The notes below the pieces were generated by a model, which saw only the letters and a list, made by a program, of their open reading frames with translations, did not search any database and was not told the origin of the DNA. The translations under genes and the position numbers were made by a program. A stretch of 64,000 nt of DNA from a virus: positions 64,001-128,000 of IMG/VR virus record IMGVR_UViG_3300049434_000014; one strand, given 5' to 3'. Numbering within the stretch: position 1 is the stretch's first letter; the number at the start of each line of letters is the position of its first letter. Below are positions 4,440 through 44,526 of this stretch, piece after piece.

Positions 4440-4856
4440 ATGCCTAAGCTTTTGTTCATCTCAGGACCGATGACGCACATGCCTAATCAGAATCGTGATG
4501 CGTTTCACGAGGCTGCAAAGCGTTTGCGCGATCATGGTTACCATGTGATTAGTCCTGCTGAGCTTAGGCCCGAAGATCATAGTGTGCTTAATCGTTGTAC
4601 GAGAAAGGATTTGCAAATCCTTCTCGCCTTTCCTATTGAAGGTATTGCTACGTTGCCTGATGGGCCTGAGGTCCACCCTGATTTCCCTCCAAGCGCGGGT
4701 ATGGCTGTGGAGCGACGTCTTGCTGACGATGTGCTTAAGGTTCCCGTTCTTAGTGTTACGTCGTGGCTGACTCTTGATCCTGAGGATCCTGATCCCTTGG
4801 GTTTGGAGAGTGCGGATTTGACGATGCAGGATTTGCGTGGTCTCTATGATTGCTGA
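4440..4856 (+). CDS. DUF4406 / nucleoside 2-deoxyribosyltransferase-like protein
   Basis: LFISGPMT..NRDAFHEAAKRLRDHGYHVISPAE N-terminus, S.G..E motif. Confidence 0.75.
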   Translation: MPKLLFISGPMTHMPNQNRDAFHEAAKRLRDHGYHVISPAELRPEDHSVLNRCTRKDLQILLAFPIEGIATLPDGPEVHPDFPPSAGMAVERRLADDVLKVPVLSVTSWLTLDPEDPDPLGLESADLTMQDLRGLYDC

Positions 4857-23961: not shown

Positions 23962-24079
23962 CGACAAGTCAGTTCTTTACGCTTCGAGCCTTCCTGACAA
24001 GTCCAATCATGTCTTTTTCAGTTCGACTCGACTATTCTTGTCCATTCACCTCGCCTCGAGGCGTTTGACTTTTTCGTCC
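23962..24079 (+). repeat. Pentamer-periodic GAC-delimited array A (about 3-4 units), putative guide-RNA array
   Basis: cgac aagtc agttc tttac gcttc gagcc ttcc tgac aagtc caatc atgtc ... gac tattc ttgtc cattc acctc gcctc gaggc. Confidence 0.8.
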
Positions 24080-27311: not shown

Positions 27312-28219
27312 AATGGCTAGGGGTAGACGTCCCGTTCCGGAGGGCTTCGTTCGGATACTAGATCGTCGTAGCTCCGGTGCGGCGGGTGCGCACAAGGGTA
27401 GGACTGTGACGAGAAGTGCTGAGAGAAGCTCAGCTATTCGATCGAGCAGGGAGAATTAATATGTGTAAGTCGATTACTGTCGGCGAGCTTTTTGCGACCG
27501 ATAATCGGACTTTGACGGAGAAGATGGACGATCATTCGAAGCAAGATAATTTCGAGAGTGCTTTGACTGGTGTTCAGTATCAGCTTCGTCAGGCTCGGAT
27601 CGCTATGCTGGCTGCGGGAATGAAGATGCAGGATACTGATCGCCCGGAGATTGAGGTTGACGATTTCAGGTTGTACGACACTGCGGTGGAGGCAATTCAG
27701 AATCTTCAGGCTCGTATTCGTGACATTCTTGATGATTTGGATCCTAACGCTCCCATCCCGTCTGAGCGGCAGCTCCGCACGGATCAGGTCTAGTCTTCCT
27801 ACGTCGTGTTCAGAGAGGTAGTTATGCATCCGAATTCAGCATTTGCTTGGGATGATACTTCTCATCCTGCTCTTGCAGCCAAGGCGCGCGAGGCTCAGTT
27901 GGAGAAATTAGATACTCTGATGTATGTGCAGAAGAAGCTGATTGAGTCTCAGCGGGCACTGCTTGATGCTTTGTCGTCTCTGGTTGATACCAAGGTTGAG
28001 TTGTCTGCTGCTAGGAAGAAAGCGGCCAGTGAGACTCAGGGTTTCTTGACGGATTTGCAGCTGGCAACGCTGGAAGCATTCGCTTTGATTCAGCAGGGAT
28101 CGGTTTAGCGGGTACGACCAGTCGTCTTCGGACAGGGCATAGTAGAGCCTGAACAGACAGAATAAACTAGATATGGGGAGCACCGAAGAGTGGTTGTGAC
28201 TGGTCATGTCCACTCTCGG

Positions 28220-28673
28220 TGACTCGCTACGTTACACTGCAGATCGACTACTCAATTCTGTTCAGGCCCGTTCGATTCATTTGACAACCCGGCACAGGCC
28301 CTCTCGCATCCATGCGACAATGCGAGTCTTGTCTCCCCCTGGCCCATGCCGACTGTCCGTCTCGCCTCCGTATCCCATCCTTTCCGTTCTGTGCCGACGA
28401 GCCAGCTCGATCCGGGTCTCTCCCACCCACCGACTAGTCTCTGCGGATCCTCCCGGGTCAGGTGACTCTGCCGATCTAGTCCCAGCGCATCATCTCGTGT
28501 CCGACTATCCGTATCCGTGCTTGTCGTTTCCAATCGACCAGTCAGTCCCGGTCAGTTCGTGCCTTGTTCCGACAGATCGCTGCTGTTCGTTTCCCGTCAG
28601 TGCGACGGACCGAGACTGTTCGCCTCCAATCAGTTCGACTACTCGACACAAGTCACCCCAAGGCCGACGAACC
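28220..28673 (+). repeat. Pentamer-periodic GAC-delimited array B (about 13 units), putative guide-RNA array
   Basis: e.g. gac tctgc cgatc tagtc ccagc gcatc atctc gtgtc c|gac tatcc gtatc cgtgc ttgtc gtttc caatc|gac ... agatc gctgc tgttc gtttc ccgtc agtgc|gac. Confidence 0.9.
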
Positions 28674-29857
28674 GTTAGGACTAGTTATGGCACTGAGTGA
28701 GTCGGTGAAGAACCGTCTGCTGAACTGGAAGTTCGAGCAGGCGTGGCAGACCTTGTCTGAGGAGATGGGCGGGGATGCTTCGGAGGCTGAGGTTCAGACG
28801 GTGCGGGCGTTGGCGATCACGTTCGGGGATCCGGGTTGGTTTGAGGGTTCGATGGCAGACATCATCCGGGCTGTGTTGTGGTTTTTAGGAGTGACTGACG
28901 ATGATTAGTTTTCGACAGATCGATGAGTTTCTTACTCCTAAGGATCCGTTTTTCAAGCTTTTGATACCTGCTCTGCTTGCGGCTTATGTGTTTATGTTAA
29001 CTGTGGGTGCTGTTGTCGCTATCACTTTCTTTACTATCGGGATGGCTATCGTTATCACGTCTGCTGTGATGGGTAGCTTGTCGTTGGTGATTTTCTACGT
29101 GATCGATAAGGTAGTCACCAAATGACTAGGGTGTGGCGTGCTCATGGATTGCCTCACGGGCATGCGGATATTCCTAGGAAGATACGAACAGCTGATCATC
29201 GATTGTTTGAGCATTTTGATGGTAGTTTGTTTCGTGAGCTTTCTACGTCTCAGTGTAATTATAGGCACTGGGATGAGTTGGTGTTTCCTGTTTTTGAGGT
29301 CTCGGATGTTTCTCCAGAGGCGGTGTCTGCTTCTGCGGATGGTGTGCTCACGGGTGTGTGGATGTCTGGTCAGTTCTCGGACATCGACATGATTAACGAC
29401 ATCGCTGATTGGTTGTTGAAGACTAAGCTTCCTGTGTTGAACGTCAGTTTTGCTGCAGCGGTGGCGGATCGTATTCGTTACCTGCTAGAAAATGATGAGG
29501 AGACTCACCTGCTGCTAGGGAGAGAAGAGCTGTGAGTGATCACAAGATCGTGGAGTTTCTGAATTTGTGCGTGTCGGCTGATGAGGCAACCGGGTTAGGT
29601 TCGCCGTGGGAGTTTATCTTCAAGCGACGCATCATTGTCATTCATGCCCCACGTAAAGACGATAATGAGCAGTGGGTGTGTGATGCGTGTTCGTGGATGC
29701 ATCCTGAGATACGTCAGATTGTTAATGCGTACGCACCTTGCGAGCATTTGCAGTATATGTCTATGATCTATTCTAAGCGGGCTGGGTTTGATCCGGATTG
29801 GATTCATGACGTGATCGGGTTCGCTGAGCTTCCCTAATACTCCGGGTTTTCCGGATA

Positions 29858-30361
29858 TGACTACACTACTCCGATCCTTTCATGTCGTTGGCGAATCGTT
29901 CCCGTCCCGACTATTCGCCGCATGTCCCTTCGTGTCTTGCCAAGTCGACTATTCGTTTCGATCCCGGCCATTTCGTTTTGACTATTCGCATCGGATCCAG
30001 CTCCTATCGATTCGACTGATCTTGTCGACTACGCAAGTCAGTTCCGTTCTTTGCATTGCGACTTGTCGAGCCTGTCCGTGTCCGCGCGTATCGACTACCC
30101 GATCCAGTTCCGTCCTTTCCCGCTCTTTCCGACTACGCTCGTCTCATCCGGGCATGTCATCTCGACTACTCGATTCTTTCTCGTCGCTGCGGCTCTGTTC
30201 GACTACCCGGTTCGATACGGGACATCCCTGTCCGTTCTGACTACCCGTCTCCGTTCGCTTCTAGCCCAGTCCGTCTCGACAACCCATGTCGCGGCACTGC
30301 TCTTCTTTCCGTGACGACAGGCCAGTTCCAGTCTGTTCGTCTCTGTACGACATCACACATC
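29858..30361 (+). repeat. Pentamer-periodic GAC-delimited array C (about 15 units), putative guide-RNA array
   Basis: e.g. gac tacgc aagtc agttc cgttc tttgc attgc|gac ttgtc gagcc tgtcc gtgtc cgcgc gtatc|gac taccc gatcc agttc cgtcc tttcc cgctc tttcc|gac; boundary consensus CGACTA. Confidence 0.92.
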
Positions 30362-31464
30362 GGGTAGGAGTTGGGATGTATACGTTTTCTGAGGGTGTGT
30401 TGATTACGGATGACATGATTGAGCGTGACGATTCGATCGAGCCTCGCGCGGGTCAGCCTTGCTGGTGTCCTGATTCGTTTATCGAGGCGTGTTTTTACGT
30501 GCGGTATTGCCCGCGCCACGGGTCGGTTCCTGATCAGGATCTCTGGAATTTCAGGGTTGCTCCATACGGGATCTCATAGGTCTGCAGGGTTGCATGGTCT
30601 ACGAGGTCATGGTATGGTTGTTCCAACAGCAAGGGAGCCAGCCATGGAGGTCAGTGACAAGATTGAGGATTACCAGTTCGAGGCGCGTGTCCAGATCCGT
30701 TGCGGGTGTGGTCGTTACGTCTCCATCGGTCCTAATGCGGTGACCGGAGATTGCTGGGGTTGTGGTCGGGTCTATCGGACGTCAGTCGAGGTGCTAGCGG
30801 GTAGGACTGGGACATGACGACAACTCGAAACACTATCACCATTAATATAGTCAATGATGGGTCAGGTGTTACTGCTTCTGGCACTCTTGTCACGAGCCGA
30901 GTGATTGATCTCGAGGATCTTGATGAGCGTTACTGTTTGGTGTATCTCAAGATTGAAGATCCTACTGATGATCACACTCTCTCTCTTACGGTTGTAGATA
31001 TGTTGGAGACGTCCGTTCCGGTTGATTTTGCTGCTATTGAGGAGTCGGTTTACACGGCAGCGCGTGAGACTCGTAAGGCTGCGCGCGAGGCTCTTGCAGC
31101 GCAAAATCAGTAACGGTTCTGACGATCGGTAGTGTATCTTCTGTAAGGGTTGTCTGCGGGGTAGGACTCGATCATGTCGAGTCGTAACTACAGTGTCGCG
31201 ATTCGGATTGCTTGTGTGTGCAAGCGTGGGTTCTATGTTAAGAGAGTGGATCGACCAGCGGTGTGTCCGCATTGTGGACATCGGTTCGCTGTGAAGATCA
31301 AGTGTGTGGAGATCGGGCCAGCTGAGGAGCCTGTCTCAGACAAACGCAAGGCGGGTAGGATTCCGGTGGGTGGTGGAGTCTTGCACGGGGCTAAGACTTA
31401 AATGACAATGCATTAACTTGCAGCGTCCACCACCCGTTTGACAACTTAACAGAGATCCCATGAT

Positions 31465-31535
31465 GGCTTCATAGACTAATGGCAGGTCACTAGCCTCTCA
31501 AGCTAGGAGTACGGGTTCGACCCCCGTTGGAGCTA
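31465..31535 (+). tRNA. tRNA-Glu (CTC)
   Basis: GGCTTCA/TGGAGCT acceptor; ctagc-CTCTCAA-gctag anticodon arm; GGTTCGA T-loop. Confidence 0.85.
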
Positions 31536-31547
31536 CGTTTGTATTAA

Positions 31548-31617
31548 CGTTCCGTGGTGTAGGGATAGCACGCCGGTCACGGGACCGGTAGTCCACGTTT
31601 AACTCGTGGCGGAACGA
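31548..31617 (+). tRNA. tRNA-like gene with abnormal anticodon loop (6 or 8 nt; identity undetermined)
   Basis: CGTTCCG/CGGAACG acceptor, D arm, ccgg-tcacggga-ccgg, T arm ccacg-tttaact-cgtgg. Confidence 0.6.
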
Positions 31618-31664
31618 CGCACGGCCTAGGATCGCCTCTGCTTCGGGCATGCGCCTAGGTCTCT

Positions 31665-31738
31665 CGGGATGTAGGGAAGCCAGGTATCCCACCTGTTTTG
31701 GGTACAGGAAGCCGCAGGTTCGAATCCTGCCGTCCCGA
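31665..31738 (+). tRNA. tRNA-Pro (TGG)
   Basis: CGGGATG acceptor; cctgt-TTTGGGT-acagg; GGTTCGAATCC. Confidence 0.9.
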
Positions 31739-31740
31739 CT

Positions 31741-31816
31741 GGATGGATGTAGCTCAATGATAGAGCCCTTGGATTAACGTCTAAGGAGACGTGGGTTTGA
31801 TTCCCGCCACCATCCT
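31741..31816 (+). tRNA. tRNA-like gene with abnormal anticodon loop (cttgg-attaacgt-ctaag) and bulged acceptor stem
   Basis: TAGCTCAATGATAGAGC D arm; GGGTTTGATTCCC T arm. Confidence 0.6.
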
Positions 31817-31820
31817 TCAT

Positions 31821-31895
31821 GGTGAATGTAGCTCAAATGGCAGAGCGCCTGATTGTGGGTCAGGTCGTTGCGGGTTCGATTCCCGTCGTTCACCC
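31821..31895 (+). tRNA. tRNA-His (GTG)
   Basis: Encoded G-1; cctga-TTGTGGG-tcagg; GGTTCGATTCC. Confidence 0.9.
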
Positions 31896-31978
31896 CGAGA
31901 GGGACGGAGTCCAAAGCACATATGGTACCTGTTGCTAGGACTTAAACGACAATGTTATGTGTGTCCGTCCTTCTCCTA

Positions 31979-32050
31979 TCCTCGTTAGCTCAAAGGCAGA
32001 GCGTGCGATTGTTAATCGCAGGGTTGTTGGTTCAAGTCCAGCACGGGGAG
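31979..32050 (+). tRNA. tRNA-Asn (GTT)
   Basis: TCCTCGT/ACGGGGA acceptor; tgcga-TTGTTAA-tcgca. Confidence 0.9.
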
Positions 32051-32061
32051 CGTTTGTTTAT

Positions 32062-32132
32062 GGGTGTGACAGGATTGTGACAGTGGAGCCCGCTGAGCGG
32101 CACTGTTGAGGGTTCGAGTCCCTCCACTTCCA
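32062..32132 (+). ncRNA. tRNA-like small RNA with intact T arm but non-canonical remainder
   Basis: gaggg-TTCGAGT-ccctc T arm; acagtg/cactgt stem enclosing a ccgc-tga-gcgg hairpin. Confidence 0.45.
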
Positions 32133-32137
32133 CGAGA

Positions 32138-32490
32138 TGGGCAGTCGTTGTCGCTTGCTTCTTTAGCTACGGTAATCACCCCGATGGAGCGAGTGACCCT
32201 TCACGCGAGGTCGGTTGGAGGCTGACAACCTGACGACAATTGGTGGGCTTGTCACTCACCTACCTATCTCTGCTCGAACCACTTTGTTGGCGGGTTCGCT
32301 ACCCGTACGGAGTGCCGGTTTGATCCAGATAGGCTCTAAGCCGAGGTGTGGGTGCGACCCCGCTAGCCCTCGGTGCCCCGAGGATCCCTTGCCAGAGAGG
32401 AACCGGATACGGATCTGGTGTTCGAGTAGTCGAGATGGACAGGGTCTGTGTGAATAACGCAGCTTCAACGACACTGTGGTGTGCCTGTCC
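32138..32490 (+). ncRNA. Candidate large structured ncRNA (about 350 nt) within the tRNA cluster (GOLLD-like?)
   Basis: No credible ORF; 5' gtcgttg pairs with 3' caacgac; many internal stems; T-loop-like gggtgcgacccc; sits between tRNA genes. Confidence 0.5.
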
Positions 32491-32498
32491 TTCTCCAA

Positions 32499-32569
32499 GG
32501 TGGAATGACCGAGCGGCTAGGTAGCGGTCTGCAAAACCGCGCACGCGGGTTCGATTCCCGCTTCCGCCT
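32499..32569 (+). tRNA. tRNA-Cys (GCA)
   Basis: GGTGGAA/TTCCGCC acceptor; gcggt-CTGCAAA-accgc. Confidence 0.9.
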
Positions 32570-32587
32570 CGTTGGGTAGGATATGTC

Positions 32588-32983
32588 ATGACTGAAACAC
32601 TGGTAACGGCGCTTCTGAGGAACAAGCCAGGGAAGTGGGCGCACGTCCTTCACGAGGACTCGGTAGCTCCTAACATTCCCTCCCATCATCTGATGGATCT
32701 TGCGTGTGACGTGAATCTGGGCAATGATGAGTGGGCTCCTGCGGGTGCGTTTTCGGCAGTGATTCGGGATGCTTCGGATCTGTATGTTCGATTCAATTCA
32801 GATAAACCTGATGTCACTGAAGTTGTGGTGTCGTACCGTGCGTCGTTGAAGTACGGTAATTGCTTTGATTGCGGCCTTCCGGGTGCGCAGTATCTGTTGG
32901 TCGACGTGGGTGTGATGAACTGTCCGCTGTGTGCGGCTGAGGCTGCGGTAGCGGGCGCTCAGGTGACTAGGTTGGAGCGTTAG
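32588..32983 (+). CDS. Hypothetical protein with C-terminal Zn finger
   Basis: CFDC...CPLC; GGGTAGGA upstream. Confidence 0.6.
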   Translation: MTETLVTALLRNKPGKWAHVLHEDSVAPNIPSHHLMDLACDVNLGNDEWAPAGAFSAVIRDASDLYVRFNSDKPDVTEVVVSYRASLKYGNCFDCGLPGAQYLLVDVGVMNCPLCAAEAAVAGAQVTRLER

Positions 32984-32992
32984 TTTGTTCGT

Positions 32993-33065
32993 GGGTCGTT
33001 AGTTTAACTGGTAAAACAGGAGCCTCCAAAACTCCACGATGTGGGTTCGATTCCTGCACGGCCCG
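32993..33065 (+). tRNA. tRNA-Trp (CCA)
   Basis: GGGTCGT/ACGGCCC acceptor; ggagc-CTCCAAA-actcc; GGTTCGATTCC. Confidence 0.85.
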
Positions 33066-33534
33066 CTTATGAATGGGTAGGATGTGACATGTGGCAACGT
33101 GAGGATATGGCGAGGTTCCTTATTTGGCTTGACGATCAGGGTTTGCTTAATCCTCCCGTTGAGATCGAGATTGATGAGATCCTCGATTTTTATGAGGATT
33201 ATACAGGCGTTTTTACCTCAAGGAGTAGAGATGGCTGAGTCTCAGATTTTCGAAGAGCACACTGTTCGATACCCCGAGTGCGATAAGCTGCACCGTGTAT
33301 CTGGCGATGTCTCGACGCTGCATGAGTTTCTGGAGTGGCTGGCTGAGAATGGCCTGCAGGTGTGCAGCCTTGAGGAGACTGGGAAGTTTGACTGTGATGG
33401 TCCGGTCGAGCATTACTTCCCAATCCGCGAGCAGCGAGAAGCTTTGGTGCAGCGGTTCTTTTCGATTGATCCAGCCAAGCTGGAGAGCGAGCGCAGGGCT
33501 ATGCTTGCTGCACTGCAGAGTTGATTGAAGACAT

Positions 33535-33616
33535 TACCCCGTCGTCTATTTTGGCAGGACGCTGTGCGGTGGTCGCTCCCCGTGCGGAGGTGCACGTTCG
33601 ACTCGTGCCGGGGTAG
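33535..33616 (+). tRNA. tRNA-like gene (Gln-like body) with extended anticodon arm and about 10-nt loop
   Basis: TACCCCG/CGGGGTA acceptor, TGGCAGGAC D arm, gcacg-TTCGACT-cgtgc T arm; anticodon arm ctgtgcgg-tggtcgctcc-ccgtgcgg. Confidence 0.6.
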
Positions 33617-33731
33617 CTGGAGGATAGATGTTAGCTAACGTTGTTGGTACGTTACTTGGGTTGATGCTTTTTCTGTTGGTGATCGTGTCACTTGTGATGC
33701 TAGTTCTGTCGTTTGCTCGTGATTGATCCCT

Positions 33732-33804
33732 GCACCGGTAGCTCAGGGGATAGAGTGTCTGATTACGGATCAGAATGTCGCAGGTTCGATTCCTGCCCGG
33801 TGCG
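33732..33804 (+). tRNA. tRNA-Arg (ACG)
   Basis: GCACCGG/CCGGTGC acceptor; tctga-TTACGGA-tcaga. Confidence 0.92.
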
Positions 33805-39245: not shown

Positions 39246-39421
39246 TGGATCGAGAGTTGTTAACTGAGCTGTTGGGCGAGGGTTTCCATACAGCATTTCG
39301 CAAAGCTACTGACTGCGACCAGGCACCAGTCATCTACAGGTTAATTGAAGAGATGCCTGAAGATGACTGGGCCAATGTTCTAGACTTTGTTGCGGATTGT
39401 TTACCTACCGAGAAGTTCAAA

Positions 39422-39560
39422 GACTAGAAGTCGCGATTGCGCCAGGCGGATCGGTTGTCCCAGATTCGAGACATGTCAAACCAGGCTCGCCCAGTCTCAG
39501 CTCGCCAGACACCGATATGATATCCAGAGAACAAACCGAGACCAAGCAGCACGAAACCTC
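39422..39560 (+). repeat. Degenerate pentamer-periodic array D
   Basis: gagac atgtc aaacc aggc tcgcc cagtc tcagc tcgcc ... gagac caagc agcac gaaac; C/A-rich intergenic segment. Confidence 0.4.
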
Positions 39561-40348
39561 CTAAGTGGAGGATGCTGTTTATGAGATCCCACATGGCTTT
39601 TCCTCGATTCCTGTCCTTTGGGTACTACTGTAGCAACGTGTCAAGGTGACTCGTTATCGAGGGGTGACATGATGAGTAGACAAGAAAAGTGGGAAGCACT
39701 AAGTAATATTCAGAAAGCGAAGCGTCAGGCCCTAGGCGCGGTATTCTCTGTTTTTGTGCTGGTGTTCCTGCCCTTCTGGGTGCCCCTGGACGGTATTTTC
39801 AAGATCATCTGCGCGGTGATCGTCGGCCTGTTGGGGCTAATACTGGCTTTCCAGGCTGGTGTGTACTCAAGTTCTACGGACGAGGAGACTAGATAGTGAC
39901 TGACTCTGCTGGTCCTTATTACGAGATCGTGGATGAAGACGATGCTGGTGTATCTGATTTGCCAGTGCAGGAGATTGTTTGGGTGGTCGACCCTGATGCC
40001 GACCCAATCGTCCCGTACGCGGGTATGGACCCTGACGAGCCAATCGTGAAGTCTGCCGATGATGGTCCTGTCGCGGGCAGTGCAGGGGATCTTCCGTGAG
40101 TACTGCTACAGTGTGTATTCCTGGTACGCGTTCTTATCGCGCGGGTGTGACTCGAGGTTACGAACGTGCGGAGCGCATGTTTTCCATGGAGGGCTGTGCT
40201 CGTATCCCTCATCGTTCTGACGTCCTGAGGGGTCTTCCCTTTTGGGTTGAGGGTCATGATGATATTGAGAAGTATCTTGACGGGTATGCGTTAGGATTTG
40301 CACGTCGAGTGTCCGGTCATTGGCCAAACGGTATGTTGAGGACTTTCA

Positions 40349-40912
40349 ATGAGTGAACCTGTGCTTGATACACGTGATTACAATGCTGAGATGAATGAGC
40401 TTATTTCAGAGAAGATTCCTGCTGATGGGGATTTCATTCCTTCGCTGGCTGCGTGGAGCATCGTCTCAGCTCTCACCGAGACTGATCCTGAGCTTCTCGA
40501 CGGTTGGCTGCGTTTGCACGCGAAGTCGTTTCTTACGGAGTTGATGCGTGCTCAGCTTCGTTCTCATCGTGCTCGGGTTCGGTCTAGTGCGAAGGCGACG
40601 GCGTTTTCGTCTGCTGCTAAGCGCTTTGAGAAAAACGGTGACCTCGCCGAGCTGGGCGGGTGGATGAAGATTCGGTATGTAGTCGATGATCAGAGTACGC
40701 AGCGTTGTCTTGGCGATATGGATCGTAATGATCTGAATTTCGTTGCTTCACGGTATAGTCGGACGGCTCAGACTCTGTTGCTCGAGGAGGCGTTTCATCG
40801 CGCGCTAGCATCGCGGGTGGGTAGTCTGAAGGTCAGTGAGGTTTTCACTGAGGAGCAGATTAGCGCGATGTATCGTAATCTGAGTGGCAATACGCATACT
40901 GCTACTGCCTGA
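40349..40912 (+). CDS. Hypothetical protein directly upstream of array E (candidate partner of the Cas7-like system)
   Basis: Its TGA stop is the first TGAC delimiter of array E. Confidence 0.75.
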   Translation: MSEPVLDTRDYNAEMNELISEKIPADGDFIPSLAAWSIVSALTETDPELLDGWLRLHAKSFLTELMRAQLRSHRARVRSSAKATAFSSAAKRFEKNGDLAELGGWMKIRYVVDDQSTQRCLGDMDRNDLNFVASRYSRTAQTLLLEEAFHRALASRVGSLKVSEVFTEEQISAMYRNLSGNTHTATA

Positions 40913-41242
40913 CTTACCAAGACCAGTCACGGCTCATCCGTTCGATACCGTTCCGACATGTCTAGCCTCATCCCGTCAAGTCTTGCCATTGCCGACACGT
41001 CTAAGCACGTCTATTCACGTCCGACATTCCAAGGCCAGTCGCGTCGCGTTGGGCCATATCGCTTCCTTTCCGACTACGCACTTCTGCCCATAACTATTCA
41101 CGGCGACTTCCCGTATCAGGCCAAGTCGAGCCGTTTCGACTACACACTTCTCGCCGCGCCTAGTCGGGACCGACTTCACAAGCCGGATCGTGACAGGTCA
41201 GTTCGAGACCGACTGGGCTATCCGAATCGTTTCTCATCCGAC
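40910..41242 (+). repeat. Pentamer-periodic GAC-delimited array E (9 units)
   Basis: tgac ttacc aagac cagtc acggc tcatc cgttc gatac cgttc|cgac atgtc tagcc tcatc ccgtc aagtc ttgcc attgc|cgac acgtc taagc acgtc tattc acgtc|cgac... Confidence 0.92.
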
Positions 41243-41659
41243 AATGTCAGGAGTGTCTAGTGACTATCTCTGCTCAAGAGATTCTTAACTTGCCGATGCA
41301 GTCTAACGATGCGCAGGCAGCTACAGTTGGAGAATACTTGGTTGCACTTGTTAGAGAAGTGTGGAGATTAAATGAGAATTTTAGCGGTAAGAGACCGTTT
41401 GGGAACAGTGGATGGCATTACGAGCTTTACGCACCGTTGGTGAGAGCAGGTTTAGTTGACGGGCTCACTAATGAGGATGGAGAGATTGAAGTTACTGATG
41501 GACGCAGGGCTGATGCGTTGATTGATTTGGCCATCTTGGGGCTCTGGAAGCCCAGCGCGGAGAGCACGCAATAGTCACGGATCGCAACCACCTCAGCTCC
41601 CATCCGTTATCTGGGTGCTGAGGTGGTTTTGCGTTGTCCCCTATTTTTGAGGAGAGACT

Positions 41660-42094
41660 GTGCTTGCTTACCGTAGGACGGTGCTCGCGGTGGTGAGTAC
41701 TGCGACGCTTGGTGTGTCTTCTCTGCTGGCCGCTCCTGCCTTCGCTGATGACCCATCGCTGCCTGGTGTGCCCAATCCCCCGTCGTGCACGAACCCGCTG
41801 CCGCTGCGGGGCAGTGAGGTCCCGATCTGTGTGACGGTCAATAACCCTCCCGACAATGAGGGTGGCGTGAAGGCTCGCGTTCGGGTCGGAGACGTCTTGT
41901 GTGTGAAGGTCGACGCTCTTACCGAGCGTAAGACTGCTGACGCTCGCGTGATTCTGCCGTGCCCGATTCACTATGTTCCTGTGCCAGTTCCGGTGGAGGT
42001 GACTCCCGAGCCTGCTCCTGTCGAGACTCCTGAGCCCGCTCCTGTTGCACAGGCTCCTGAGATTGTACAGGCTCATTTGCCTGTTACGAATTAA
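41660..42094 (+). CDS. Secreted Pro-rich protein
   Basis: Signal peptide ending AAPAFA; four Cys; PEPAPV repeats. Confidence 0.7.
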   Translation: MLAYRRTVLAVVSTATLGVSSLLAAPAFADDPSLPGVPNPPSCTNPLPLRGSEVPICVTVNNPPDNEGGVKARVRVGDVLCVKVDALTERKTADARVILPCPIHYVPVPVPVEVTPEPAPVETPEPAPVAQAPEIVQAHLPVTN

Positions 42095-42108
42095 TTCGTT
42101 TTCCACTG

Positions 42109-42146
42109 AAAGGCCCGTCCCTTTGCGCTAAGAGGGACGGGCCTTT
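42109..42146 (+). terminator. Terminator hairpin
   Basis: aaaggcccgtccct...agggacgggccttt. Confidence 0.8.
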
Positions 42147-42227
42147 CGCCTGGGTAGTACTCGGTATGGGATTCCGGTCTGTGGATACCCCATGTCTCGA
42201 TGAAAAATACATCCAGGAGGAATACTC

Positions 42228-42986
42228 GTGACGGTTTCTACTTCGGCTCCTGTCAGTGTGTTTGCAAAGTACCGTGATGTCACGTGGCCTTATAGGTATG
42301 AGGGCACTCTGCACATCGATACCATTGCTGGAGGCATTCCTTCTGACGAGAAGGTTGCTGAGGCATGGTTACGTACGAAGTTGGAGAACAAAGACGACCT
42401 CATTCGTGAGGCCGTTGCTGAGACGATGGCCGCTCGCGGTGTCGGTAAGGAAGAGGCGGCACAGATCGTCGCTTCGATGAAGCACTTCACTGGTTTTAAG
42501 CGTGACAGCAATGGGCTATACATCGAAGGTCGTCAGCTGAAAGCGGCGATCAAGGAAGCGGCGATGATTGCTGTCGCCGCTGAGCGGATTCCCCTGCGCG
42601 GGTGGGGTGTTACCTCGAAGTACCTTAAGGGTTTCGTCGCGGAACACATCATGGTTGTCGATGACATCTTGTACTTGAAGGTGGACGGCACTCCTGCAAA
42701 GGAAGCTACTGGAATCACTCAGCAGTTCGTTCACACCCAGTACGGTTCGGCTCCGCACTACAAGGAGTTCGTGTCCGGTGCTACCATTGATTTCACGGTG
42801 ATTACGGACTTCTTCTTCACCGAGGAGCATTGGATGCACATCTGGGCTACGGGTGAGCAGGAAGGGATCGGTGCCTCGCGCTCTGGCGGGTTCGGTCGCT
42901 ACGTGGTTACTCGGTGGAATTTGGTGACTTCCCCACCAAAGAAGAAGGCTCCTGCCAAGGAGAAGGAAGCGGCTGCAGTTAGGTAG
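42228..42986 (+). CDS. Stand-alone Cas7/RAMP-like RNA-binding protein
   Basis: RAMP-like layout: N-terminal strand YEGTLHIDTIAGG, GLYIEGRQLKAAIKEAA (IPGSSLKG-equivalent), E.V..ATIDFTV, terminal Gly-rich loop GIGASRSGGFGRY; immediately followed by array F. Confidence 0.8.
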   Translation: MTVSTSAPVSVFAKYRDVTWPYRYEGTLHIDTIAGGIPSDEKVAEAWLRTKLENKDDLIREAVAETMAARGVGKEEAAQIVASMKHFTGFKRDSNGLYIEGRQLKAAIKEAAMIAVAAERIPLRGWGVTSKYLKGFVAEHIMVVDDILYLKVDGTPAKEATGITQQFVHTQYGSAPHYKEFVSGATIDFTVITDFFFTEEHWMHIWATGEQEGIGASRSGGFGRYVVTRWNLVTSPPKKKAPAKEKEAAAVR

Positions 42987-43017
42987 TGGTCTGGCGGCGC
43001 GTCTGGGTACGATGGCA

Positions 43018-43317
43018 GAGACAAGCCAAGCCGCATCCAGACGCGCCACCGCGCTTCGACTATTCGTGTCAGATCTATCCATCTCCTTCGACCAGCCGTG
43101 TCGCGATCATGTCGCTTCCTAGTCCTTTCGACCTGTCGCTACGTTGCGCTTCTTGGCATATCCACACCGACCATGCGCGCCGCGACCTTACAAATCCTCT
43201 CGCCCTGACGAGTCTCCACGCGGCTCTACAATACTCATCATTCTGACAAGTCTTCACGCGGCTCTACAATACTCATCATTCTGACTAGCCAAACCGGTAC
43301 ATACCATTTCGCACGAC
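43018..43317 (+). repeat. Pentamer-periodic GAC-delimited array F (8 units), directly downstream of the Cas7-like gene
   Basis: gac aagcc aagcc gcatc cagac gcgcc accgc gcttc|gac tattc gtgtc agatc tatcc atctc cttc|gac ... includes a duplicated 38-nt unit. Confidence 0.92.
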
Positions 43318-43326
43318 TGAGGACTA

Positions 43327-44449: not shown

Positions 44450-44526
44450 CGACTAATCCCTATCACTTCGCTACTACTCTGATCGTCTCCGACGTTTCTT
44501 TGGCGTGTCGAACATTGCTGTGTGAC
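44450..44526 (+). repeat. Mini pentamer-periodic array G (about 2 units)
   Basis: cgac taatc cctatc acttc gctac tactc tgatc gtctc cgac gtttc tttggc gtgtc. Confidence 0.7.

What the first reader, a model, noticed from the sequence alone, without database searches (positions are those of the whole stretch)
42228..43317. Stand-alone Cas7/RAMP-like gene plus a non-CRISPR, 5-nt-periodic array: candidate phage RNA-guided system
Seen in sequence: a 252-aa protein with RAMP hallmarks (YIEGRQLKAAIKEAA, terminal GIGASRSGGFGRY Gly-loop) is followed within about 30 nt by 8 non-coding units of the form (C/T)GAC + (NNN[Y]C)x5-8. No cas1/2/3/5/6/8/10 gene and no repeat-spacer CRISPR occur in the window. Established: Cas7 subunits polymerise along crRNA with a fixed nucleotide period (6 nt in type I) and flip out one base per subunit. 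Inference: here each subunit binds one pentamer via the invariant (Y)C and displays the variable bases, so each 28-43-nt unit is a guide with a non-contiguous code; GAC would mark processing boundaries. From memory, this parallels reported viral RAMP systems with pentameric GGY/NN guide RNAs (VIPR), but the motif here differs (fixed C, CGAC delimiter), so it may be a distinct family.
Basis: partly seen in the sequence, partly recalled or inferred. Interest (0 to 1): 0.97.

Follow-up and report, generated by a model that had tools for sequence, protein, structure and literature searches.

The report
Divergent VIPR guide system in phage
A lone CRISPR-like (Cas7-fold) protein gene in a complete 153-kb phage genome is flanked by real arrays of short five-base-periodic units; it is best read as a divergent, greatly expanded member of the VIPR RNA-guided silencing systems first described in 2026, not a wholly new kind of system.

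Summary
ORF 42228-42986 has a Cas7/Csm3-type RAMP fold. Its family aligns with canonical Vipr in a profile-profile comparison (E 4.4e-5).

The downstream array (43058-43326) is one of six in the window and seven in the genome. Together they hold about 130 nearly all-unique units, 4% of a complete phage genome. Each unit is GAC followed by 5-8 pentamers of the form NN-n-Y-C on the gene strand.

The same arrays, on the same strand, flank homologues in 54 of 64 viral loci, in 11 of 11 bacterial genome loci, and in a cultured Microcystis phage. A conserved 187-aa partner gene (40349-40912) lies upstream in 44 of 65 loci.

Across the family, guides match RAMP genes more often than order-shuffled guides. 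This holds only when the two variable bases are read with a 1-nt skip, which is the published VIPR code.

All 60 phage promoter motifs point along the + strand, so sense transcription is the likely reading.

The system therefore works like VIPR but differs in three ways: a pyrimidine-type fixed triplet (nYC, not GGY), tail-less GAC-delimited mini-guides, and massive multiplexing. I could not establish whether the seven published types already include this clade.

Other agents of this scan reached the same VIPR reading on other stretches of this genome.

The parts
42107..42148 (+). Strong hairpin followed by UUUCG. It is a terminator-like structure that closes the upstream gene (41660-42094) and separates it from the RAMP transcription unit.
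   Evidence: Fold: -39.3 kcal/mol, z -5.5. Conserved in close relatives L076 and L077.
42152..42161 (+). Phage promoter-type motif GGGTAGTACT in front of the RAMP gene.
   Evidence: GGGTAG[GT]ACT with up to 1 mismatch occurs 60 times on the + strand and 4 times on the - strand of the genome, mostly 5-8 nt before start codons. Conserved in L076 and L077.
42228..42986 (+). Vipr-like RAMP gene, 252 aa: a single RRM core with a G-loop (GIGASRSGGFGRY).
   Evidence: - AF2 model: pLDDT 77.6.
- Fold: Cas7/Csm3 top hits.
- Relatives: 903 homologues, none with a precomputed Pfam domain; the window protein itself has no Pfam hit above cut-off.
- Link to Vipr: hhalign against the canonical Vipr family gives Prob 69%, E 4.4e-5.
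42984..43062 (+). Stable hairpin between the RAMP stop codon and array D. It has no U-tract, so it may be an attenuator or a processing structure.
   Evidence: -41.6 kcal/mol, z -4.3; conserved in L076 at -43.7 kcal/mol.
43058..43326 (+). Array D: 8 GAC-delimited units of 2-7 pentamers (NN-n-Y-C). It ends about 12 nt before the ATG of the clamp-loader gene.
   Evidence: A 91%-identical relative (L076) differs by whole-unit insertions and deletions.
40349..40912 (+). Conserved accessory (vap-like) gene, 187 aa, all-helical.
   Evidence: - Present next to array plus RAMP in 44 of 65 loci.
- AF2 pLDDT 90.0.
- No Pfam hit, no significant PDB or BFVD fold match, and no similarity to SUSP1 Vap1.
40911..41245 (+). 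Array C: about 9-11 units directly after the accessory gene. It has the cleanest CCGAC-(NNNNC)5-8 grammar in the window.
28246..28680 (+). Array A: about 11-13 units.
29859..30365 (+). Array B: about 11-12 units, many starting GAC-TA. It is followed by a GGGTAGGAGT promoter motif at 30362.
23963..24065 (+). Mini-array of 3 units.
44451..44495 (+). Single unit, with a 1-nt insertion, directly after the clamp-loader gene.

Best explanation
This is a divergent VIPR-type RNA-guided DNA-recognition system of a complete 153-kb phage.

Proposed mechanism, with the basis of each step:
1. The 252-aa protein is a minimal Cas7-fold RAMP remotely homologous to Vipr (fold shown; homology moderately supported).
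2. The arrays are transcribed in the sense direction as part of the + strand operons (inferred from promoter polarity and gene packing).
3. The transcripts yield about 130 different short guide RNAs (inferred).
4. Protomers polymerise one per pentamer. They hold the semi-fixed triplet n-Y-C and present the two variable bases (inferred by homology with the Vipr cryo-EM model).
5. The NN dinucleotides of 5-8 consecutive pentamers read a DNA target with one skipped base between pairs, typically the codon wobble position (supported in silico for the family).
6. The GAC triplet, a fixed triplet without its NN, breaks the 5-nt register and marks unit borders, either as a processing site or as a stop to the filament (inferred).
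7. The outcome is probably transcriptional silencing of competing mobile elements. In some relatives the system targets vipr-like genes themselves, including the gene of the same locus (inferred by analogy with SUSP1 VIPR; the matches themselves are shown).
8. The conserved 187-aa helical partner is an accessory protein of unknown role.
For: - Fold: Foldseek against the PDB gives 106 hits at E<=0.001; all listed are Cas7-type CRISPR backbone subunits (Csm3, type VII Cas7, type III-B Cmr). VIA-align gives Z 10.4 and 10.1.
- Homology to Vipr: family profile against canonical Vipr profile, Prob 69%, E 4.4e-5 over 136 columns, aligning RRM helix 1 and the G-loop. The canonical side is tied to SUSP1 Vipr by BLASTP E 5e-9.
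- Co-occurrence and strand: in 64 viral loci there are 814 GAC-(N4C)>=5 units on the gene strand, 62 on the opposite strand and 45 in shuffles. In 11 bacterial genome loci the counts are 108 and 5. Microcystis phage Mae-JY09 shows the same layout.
- 3+2 layout: pentamer positions 1-2 are uniform, position 3 is biased, position 4 is Y in 73-83%, and position 5 is C.
- Code: 32 guides give 85 perfect hits in RAMP genes, against 19.5+-3.2 guides and 29 hits for order-shuffled guides. This holds only for skip 1 and only for register p1p2. One guide (L004) is the antisense of the KVAEGWL codons at 14 of 14 bases; another (L041) matches the GFGRY codons at 12 of 12. Both hit their own gene and many relatives.
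- Sense transcription: promoter motifs are 60 on the + strand and 4 on the - strand, none antisense near an array. Arrays abut the next start codon, so downstream genes need read-through. The vrRNAs of SUSP1 and L063 are sense to vipr.
- G-loop residues: the Vipr residues that bind G1 and G2 (D177, W178) are A216 and S217 here. The Y3-pocket arginine (R179) is the invariant R218 (cryo-EM contacts from bioRxiv 10.64898/2026.04.26.720927).
- Two-system locus: L063 carries a canonical Vipr with GGC/NN vrRNAs and a RAMP of this family with a GAC-(NNNCC)n array, all on one strand.
Against: - There are no RNA data, so transcription, processing and protein binding are untested.
- Sequence homology to Vipr is only moderate. 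hhalign against single Vipr sequences gives E 0.04-0.09.
- No conserved 3' tail or pseudoknot of the kind seen in SUSP1 vrRNAs is present.
- No target was found for this phage's own guides. Matches to its own genome are at chance (22 vs 17), and one IMG/VR scan gave only chance-level hits without convergence.
- Guides carry only 10-14 specific bases, which is little for unique targeting.
- The code enrichment is modest (z about 4) and rests on a handful of guides in relatives, not in this window.
- Read on the opposite strand, the motif is G-R-n/NN, which resembles the published alternatives NNNGG and NNNNG.
Confidence: 0.78

Rival explanations
1. It is the same VIPR-type system, but the guides are transcribed from the opposite strand. 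The RNA repeat is then G-R-n/NN (NNNNG or NNNGG type) with a short 3' ...UA-GUC end. On this reading the locus is simply a member of one of the seven published VIPR types that use those alternative motifs.
For: - The VIPR paper lists NNNGG, YNNNG and NNNNG repeats and staggered tail-less arrays (fig. S18 legend).
- The reverse complement of the family consensus NN-c-Y-C is G-R-g-NN.
- A conserved element at the 3' end would match the canonical 'repeats then tail' order.
- The target test cannot tell the strands apart, because the dsDNA pattern is the same for both.
Against: - All 60 promoter motifs face the + strand and none is antisense near an array.
- Arrays sit within 12-25 nt of the next + strand start codon at four or more places, which leaves no room for antisense promoters outside coding sequence.
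- Canonical vrRNAs are sense to vipr in SUSP1 and in L063.
- The G-loop has lost the G1 and G2 contact residues and kept the Y3 arginine.
Confidence: 0.15
2. The arrays act as DNA, not as RNA. They would be phased binding sites, iteron- or centromere-like tracks, or nucleoid-organising sites for the RAMP, the 187-aa partner or another phage protein.
For: - There is no direct evidence of transcript processing.
- Arrays are dispersed through the genome and concentrated near one end.
- The partner protein has an unknown helical fold that might bind DNA.
Against: - The fold is that of RNA-binding Cas7 backbones.
- A 5-nt phase is half a DNA turn, and here it is strictly strand-asymmetric (126 vs 6 units).
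- 83 of 84 NN strings are unique, which suits guides and not binding sites.
- The skip-1 matches to RAMP genes have no explanation under this model.
Confidence: 0.04
3. It is a type III- or type IV-like CRISPR remnant: a lone Cas7 that borrows host crRNAs, with the arrays unrelated to it.
For: The best structural matches are Csm3 and type VII Cas7.
Against: - The genome has no CRISPR repeats, no Cas1 and no other RAMP.
- The arrays track the gene in more than 65 independent loci.
- The protein gets no Pfam RAMP hit.
Confidence: 0.02

Closest known systems
VIPR systems (Vipr + vap + vrRNA), e.g. type II VIPR of Escherichia phage SUSP1. Sources: bioRxiv 10.64898/2026.04.26.720920, 10.64898/2026.04.26.720927 and 10.64898/2026.10.15.759431.
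   Same: - It is phage-encoded.
- The protein is a minimal single-RRM RAMP with a G-loop, and no cas genes or CRISPR are present.
- Non-coding arrays lie upstream and downstream of the gene, on the gene strand.
- The repeat is a pentamer with 3 constrained and 2 hypervariable bases.
- The 1-nt-skip match rule holds, with the skip at codon wobble positions.
- Some guides target vipr genes.
- There is one small accessory gene.
   Different: - The fixed triplet is n-Y-C (family consensus c-Y-C), not G-G-Y. The G-loop reads GASRS instead of GDWRP.
- Guides have 5-8 repeats rather than 9-16.
- There is no structured 3' tail. Units abut one another and are separated only by (C)GAC.
- The genome holds about 130 guides in 7 arrays, against 4 in SUSP1.
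- The accessory protein is unrelated to Vap1.
- The protein is about 60 residues longer, with a helical insert at residues 41-83.
Non-canonical VIPR-like arrays (GAC/NN, CAC/NN, WGT/NN, TGH/NN) found through entropy periodicity (bioRxiv 10.64898/2026.10.21.760802), and the alternative repeats (NNNGG, YNNNG, NNNNG) and staggered arrays of the first VIPR paper.
   Same: - The period is 5 nt, with a fixed triplet that departs from GGY.
- A Vipr-like fold is encoded next to the arrays.
- Two of the reported motifs (GAC, CAC) also carry C at the third fixed position.
   Different: - Here only the C is invariant and the triplet is degenerate.
- GAC serves as a unit delimiter and is not the repeated triplet.
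- Those clusters are described as about 10 repeats; here there are 5-8 per unit, with dozens of units in tandem.
- I could not check whether this clade is among those clusters or types, because the supplementary tables are not held.
Class 1 CRISPR backbones: Csm3/Cmr4 of type III, Cas7 of type VII, Csf2 of type IV.
   Same: The fold is shared (RRM, G-loop, thumb-like hairpin), and so, by inference, is the filament-on-RNA logic.
   Different: - There is no CRISPR array, no cas partner genes and no adaptation module.
- The step is 5 nt rather than 6 nt.
- Target reading is gapped.

Membership tests
VIPR | A Vipr protein: a minimal RAMP (single RRM, G-loop, thumb) homologous to published Viprs. 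| tested here: met
   - Cas7-type fold.
- Profile-profile comparison with a canonical Vipr alignment that includes SUSP1 Vipr: Prob 69%, E 4.4e-5.
- This is moderate, not overwhelming. Comparisons against single sequences give E 0.04-0.09.
VIPR | Tandem pentanucleotide repeats next to vipr, with conserved and hypervariable positions. | tested here: met
   The period is 5 nt, with positions 1-2 variable and 3-5 constrained. This holds in the window, in 54 of 64 viral loci and in 11 of 11 genome loci.
VIPR | Repeat consensus GGY/NN (YNNGG). | tested here: not met
   On the gene strand the motif is NN-n-Y-C. On the opposite strand it is G-R-n-NN. Neither is GGY. The paper allows 'a related consensus'.
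VIPR | vrRNA has a repeat tract followed by a conserved structured 3' tail. | tested here: not met
   Units abut with only (C)GAC between them. No Rfam family other than tRNA scored in the window, and no ribozyme or other structured-RNA family scored in the 40 relatives' loci scanned. The tail-less 'staggered arrays' of fig. S18 may correspond, but I cannot verify this.
VIPR | Targets are read through NN dinucleotides with a 1-nt skip. | tested here: met
   Enrichment of perfect matches in RAMP genes appears only for skip 1 and register p1p2. This is a family-level, in-silico result only.
VIPR | An accessory vap gene is in the locus. | tested here: inconclusive
   A conserved 187-aa partner is present in 44 of 65 loci. 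It has no similarity to SUSP1 Vap1 or to the accessory gene of L063. vap2 to vap6 were not available for comparison.
VIPR | Encoded by viruses or proviruses, without cas genes or CRISPR. | tested here: met
   The genome is an IMG/VR virus record with direct terminal repeats and CheckV completeness of 100%. It has no Cas1 and no Pfam RAMPs hit.
VIPR | vrRNAs are expressed and co-purify with Vipr, and the complex represses DNA targets. | not testable with these tools
   This needs small-RNA sequencing, pull-down and reporter assays.
CRISPR-Cas class 1 (type III/IV/VII Cas7) | The Cas7 is encoded with other cas genes and a repeat-spacer array. | tested here: not met
   No Cas1, no second RAMP and no CRISPR-type repeats were noted.

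The most novel reading that the evidence does not exclude
This actinobacterial and cyanobacterial phage clade may be a VIPR branch that the seven published types do not cover. Its protein would read a pyrimidine-type fixed triplet (nYC) on sense-strand RNA. Its guides would be tail-less, GAC-delimited mini-guides of 5-8 repeats, multiplexed more than 100-fold per genome. Some guides would silence vipr genes, including the gene of their own locus, which would amount to autoregulation or anti-VIPR warfare.
Probability: 0.4. Interest if true: 0.75.

Novelty: new variant of a known kind. Interest (0 to 1): 0.62.

Why it matters
VIPR is months old as a concept and has been characterised mainly in enterobacterial and Pseudomonas phages.

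This locus suggests that the same gapped 2-of-3 reading code works with a different fixed triplet and a differently built G-loop. That gives a natural specificity switch, useful for working out how the protein reads its repeat and for building orthogonal programmable repressors.

The scale is unusual: about 130 unique guides occupying 4% of a complete phage genome. This implies heavy investment in conflict between mobile elements in Actinobacteria.

The short guides (10-14 informative bases) raise the question of how specificity is reached.

A cultured relative, Microcystis phage Mae-JY09, offers an experimental entry point.

Tried and rejected
- Family and structure look-ups for the RAMP gave no Pfam hit above cut-off (three sub-threshold ones), no PHROG hit and no PDB sequence hit.
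- blastn of the locus against GenBank phages found nothing.
- tblastn found only Microcystis phage Mae-JY09.
- Rfam scans of the window and 40 loci found tRNAs only. No hammerhead or other ribozyme turned up that could have fixed the transcribed strand.
- Generic sigma-70 promoter and terminator scans were at chance level. The CTGACA-N16-TACAAT pair inside array D is not conserved in the 91% relative, so I do not treat it as a promoter.
The real recurrent motif is GGGTAG[GT]ACT.
- Searches for this phage's own targets failed. The self-genome scan was at chance. One 16-base gapped pattern in IMG/VR gave 9 hits with no convergence of other guides. One 10-nt match in the phage's own vap-like gene is within chance.
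- vap genes are not enriched as targets.
- Pentamer position 3 does not track the skipped target base in the L004 example (2 of 6 positions).
- Translation of the arrays was rejected, because a 5-nt phase with register shifts is incompatible with coding.
- The 39420-39570 stretch, noted elsewhere as a degenerate array, did not parse as one.

Full report
**What is there**

The ORF at 42228-42986 (+) starts with GTG behind an AGGAGG site and encodes 252 aa. It has no Pfam hit above cut-off, no PHROG hit and no PDB sequence match.

An AlphaFold2 model built from 33 homologues has mean pLDDT 77.6 with a confident core. Its topology is beta1, alpha1, beta-hairpin, alpha2, glycine loop, beta4. Foldseek against the PDB returns 106 hits at E<=0.001. 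All listed are Cas7-type backbone subunits: Csm3 of type III-A, Cas7 of type VII and a type III-B Cmr subunit. An independent all-against-all aligner gives Z 10.4 to a type VII Cas7 and 10.1 to Csm3.

Behind the stop codon lies a stable hairpin (42984-43062, -41.6 kcal/mol, z -4.3). Eight units follow from 43058 to 43326. Each is GAC plus pentamers ending in C. The 340-nt spacer holds seven runs of at least six phased C's, against 0.33 in shuffles.

**It is much bigger than reported**

The same grammar occurs at five other places in the window:
- 28246-28680
- 29859-30365
- 40911-41245
- 23963-24065
- a single unit at 44451-44495

The window is part of an IMG/VR virus record of 153,455 bp with direct terminal repeats and a CheckV completeness of 100%. 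Over the whole genome, a strict parse finds 126 units on the + strand and 6 on the - strand. A looser parse gives about 130 units in seven arrays. These cover 6.1 kb, 4% of the genome, and most lie at 145.5-150.9 kb. Of 84 NN strings, 83 are unique.

The pentamer profile in the window is as follows:
- Positions 1 and 2 are uniform.
- Position 3 is G or T in 69%.
- Position 4 is a pyrimidine in 73%.
- Position 5 is C.

This is a layout of three constrained and two free bases.

**Relatives**

The protein has 903 homologues at E<=0.001 in the 90% clusters and 506 representatives at 50% identity. Named ones come from Streptomyces, Nocardiopsis and Actinomadura.

- In 64 IMG/VR loci, 54 carry at least three units on the gene strand. 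Totals are 814 units on the gene strand, 62 on the opposite strand and 45 in block shuffles.
- In 11 of 11 loci from named bacterial genomes the counts are 108 and 5.
- A cultured cyanophage, Microcystis phage Mae-JY09, encodes a 31%-identical protein followed by a CGAC-(NNNCC)n array.
- The family consensus is NN-c-Y-C.
- A 187-aa gene (window 40349-40912) accompanies the RAMP in 44 of 65 loci, usually in the order gene, array, RAMP. Its model is confident (pLDDT 90) and helical. It matches nothing solved and is unrelated to SUSP1 Vap1.
- A relative with 91% protein identity has the same promoter, leader and post-stop hairpin, but its array differs by whole units.

**Relation to VIPR**

VIPR systems were described in 2026. 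They consist of a minimal RAMP (Vipr), an accessory gene and vrRNAs built of YNNGG pentamers. The NN bases read dsDNA with one skipped base (bioRxiv 10.64898/2026.04.26.720920). I located the SUSP1 locus in GenBank record KT454805. Its YNNGG tracts lie on the vipr strand.

Three results connect this family to Vipr:
- One IMG/VR locus, L063, holds a canonical Vipr (BLASTP E 5e-9 to SUSP1 Vipr) with GGC/NN vrRNAs. Directly after it comes a member of the present family with its own GAC-(NNNCC)n array. Everything is on one strand.
- A profile of the present family aligns with a canonical Vipr profile at Prob 69%, E 4.4e-5. The alignment covers RRM helix 1 and the G-loop.
- In that alignment, the residues reported to hold G1 and G2 of GGY (D177, W178) are A216 and S217 here. 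The arginine of the pyrimidine pocket (R179) is the invariant R218 (contacts from bioRxiv 10.64898/2026.04.26.720927). This fits a repeat that keeps only the pyrimidine position.

**Test of the code**

I took 688 units from 61 loci and the genome, and used positions 1-2 of pentamers 2 to n as the guide. I then counted perfect matches in the RAMP genes.
- With a 1-nt skip, 32 guides gave 85 hits, against 19.5+-3.2 guides and 29 hits for order-shuffled guides.
- Skips of 0, 2 and 3 nt were at chance.
- With the skip fixed at 1 nt, only the register p1p2 was enriched.

Individual matches:
- The unit just upstream of the L004 RAMP gene is the antisense of codon positions 1-2 of KVAEGWL (14 of 14 bases, 24 loci, including its own gene).
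- The first unit downstream of the L041 gene spells GFGRY (12 of 12 bases, 14 loci, including its own gene).

Hits in the RAMP gene of the guide's own locus number 3, against 0.5 expected. Guides that target vipr are already known in SUSP1 relatives (bioRxiv 10.64898/2026.10.15.759431). This test cannot tell the two strands apart.

**Which strand**

The motif GGGTAG[GT]ACT occurs 60 times on the + strand and 4 times on the - strand, mostly a few bases before start codons. One copy stands at 42152 before the RAMP gene, just behind a terminator-like hairpin. None is antisense near an array.

Arrays end 12-25 nt before the next + strand start codon, so downstream genes such as the clamp loader must be transcribed through them. 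Together with the sense orientation of canonical vrRNAs and the G-loop argument, I put sense (C-type) guides at about 85%. The alternative reading, G-R-n/NN on the other strand, would make this one of the published NNNNG or NNNGG variants. It is kept as the main rival.

**What is not known**

- No RNA data exist for this system.
- No target of this phage's own guides was found.
- The role of GAC is inferred.
- The accessory protein has no assigned function.
- I could not check whether the clade is already within the seven VIPR types or the 21 non-canonical clusters of bioRxiv 10.64898/2026.10.21.760802, because the supplementary tables are not held.

**Verdict**

The feature is real and works like VIPR. 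It is best filed as a variant of that known kind, with a different fixed triplet, tail-less mini-guides and extreme multiplexing. Other agents of this scan reached the same VIPR reading on other stretches of this genome. I re-derived the points used here independently.

Noticed in passing
Whole genome; examples in the window at 27396, 30362, 30799, 31159, 38231 and 42152: A strictly strand-specific motif, GGGTAG[GT]ACT, occurs 60 times on the + strand and 4 times on the - strand with up to 1 mismatch. It usually lies 5-8 nt before ATG or GTG. This looks like an extended -10 promoter for leaderless transcripts.
   Followed up: partly
L066:990-1763 (genome 144489-145262, outside the window): A 257-aa ORF that by eye looks like a sigma factor lies directly upstream of the 5.5-kb block of arrays. 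A ribonucleotide-reductase-like ORF precedes it. I ran no family search on either.
   Followed up: no
L066, about 4490-4550 (genome about 147990-148050, outside the window): Four tandem copies of a 14-nt unit (TACGATTCTTTTAA) interrupt the large array.
   Followed up: no
Window 43207-43282: Two adjacent 38-nt units differ at 3 bases, which marks a recent duplication. Each contains CTGAC[GA]-N16-TACAAT, a sigma-70-like pair. The pair is not conserved in the 91% relative L076, which has one unit here.
   Followed up: yes
L063:1340-3860 (IMG/VR UViG_3300033150_000513): This locus holds two systems. A canonical Vipr with five GGC/NN vrRNAs and an accessory gene is followed at once by a RAMP of the present family with a GAC-(NNNCC)n array. 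This suggests two orthogonal protein-repeat pairs in one phage.
   Followed up: partly
L078:2998-4110 (Microcystis phage Mae-JY09, PP395641, 37713-38825): This cultured cyanophage carries a family member (31% identity, G-loop GIGALRSQGHGQF) and about 10 CGAC-delimited NNNCC units at its right end. The gene is annotated as hypothetical.
   Followed up: partly
Window 31465-33804: A cluster of eight tRNA genes on the + strand.
   Followed up: no
Window 42166-42231: A 21-codon ORF starts right after the promoter and overlaps the RAMP start (GTGA). A 1-nt indel in close relatives breaks the frame, so the conserved 60-nt leader is probably non-coding.
   Followed up: partly
Window 40753 (genome 104753), minus strand: The guide at genome 148804 matches the phage's own vap-like gene perfectly under the 1-nt-skip rule. 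Only 10 bases are specified, so about 0.1 such hits are expected by chance.
   Followed up: partly
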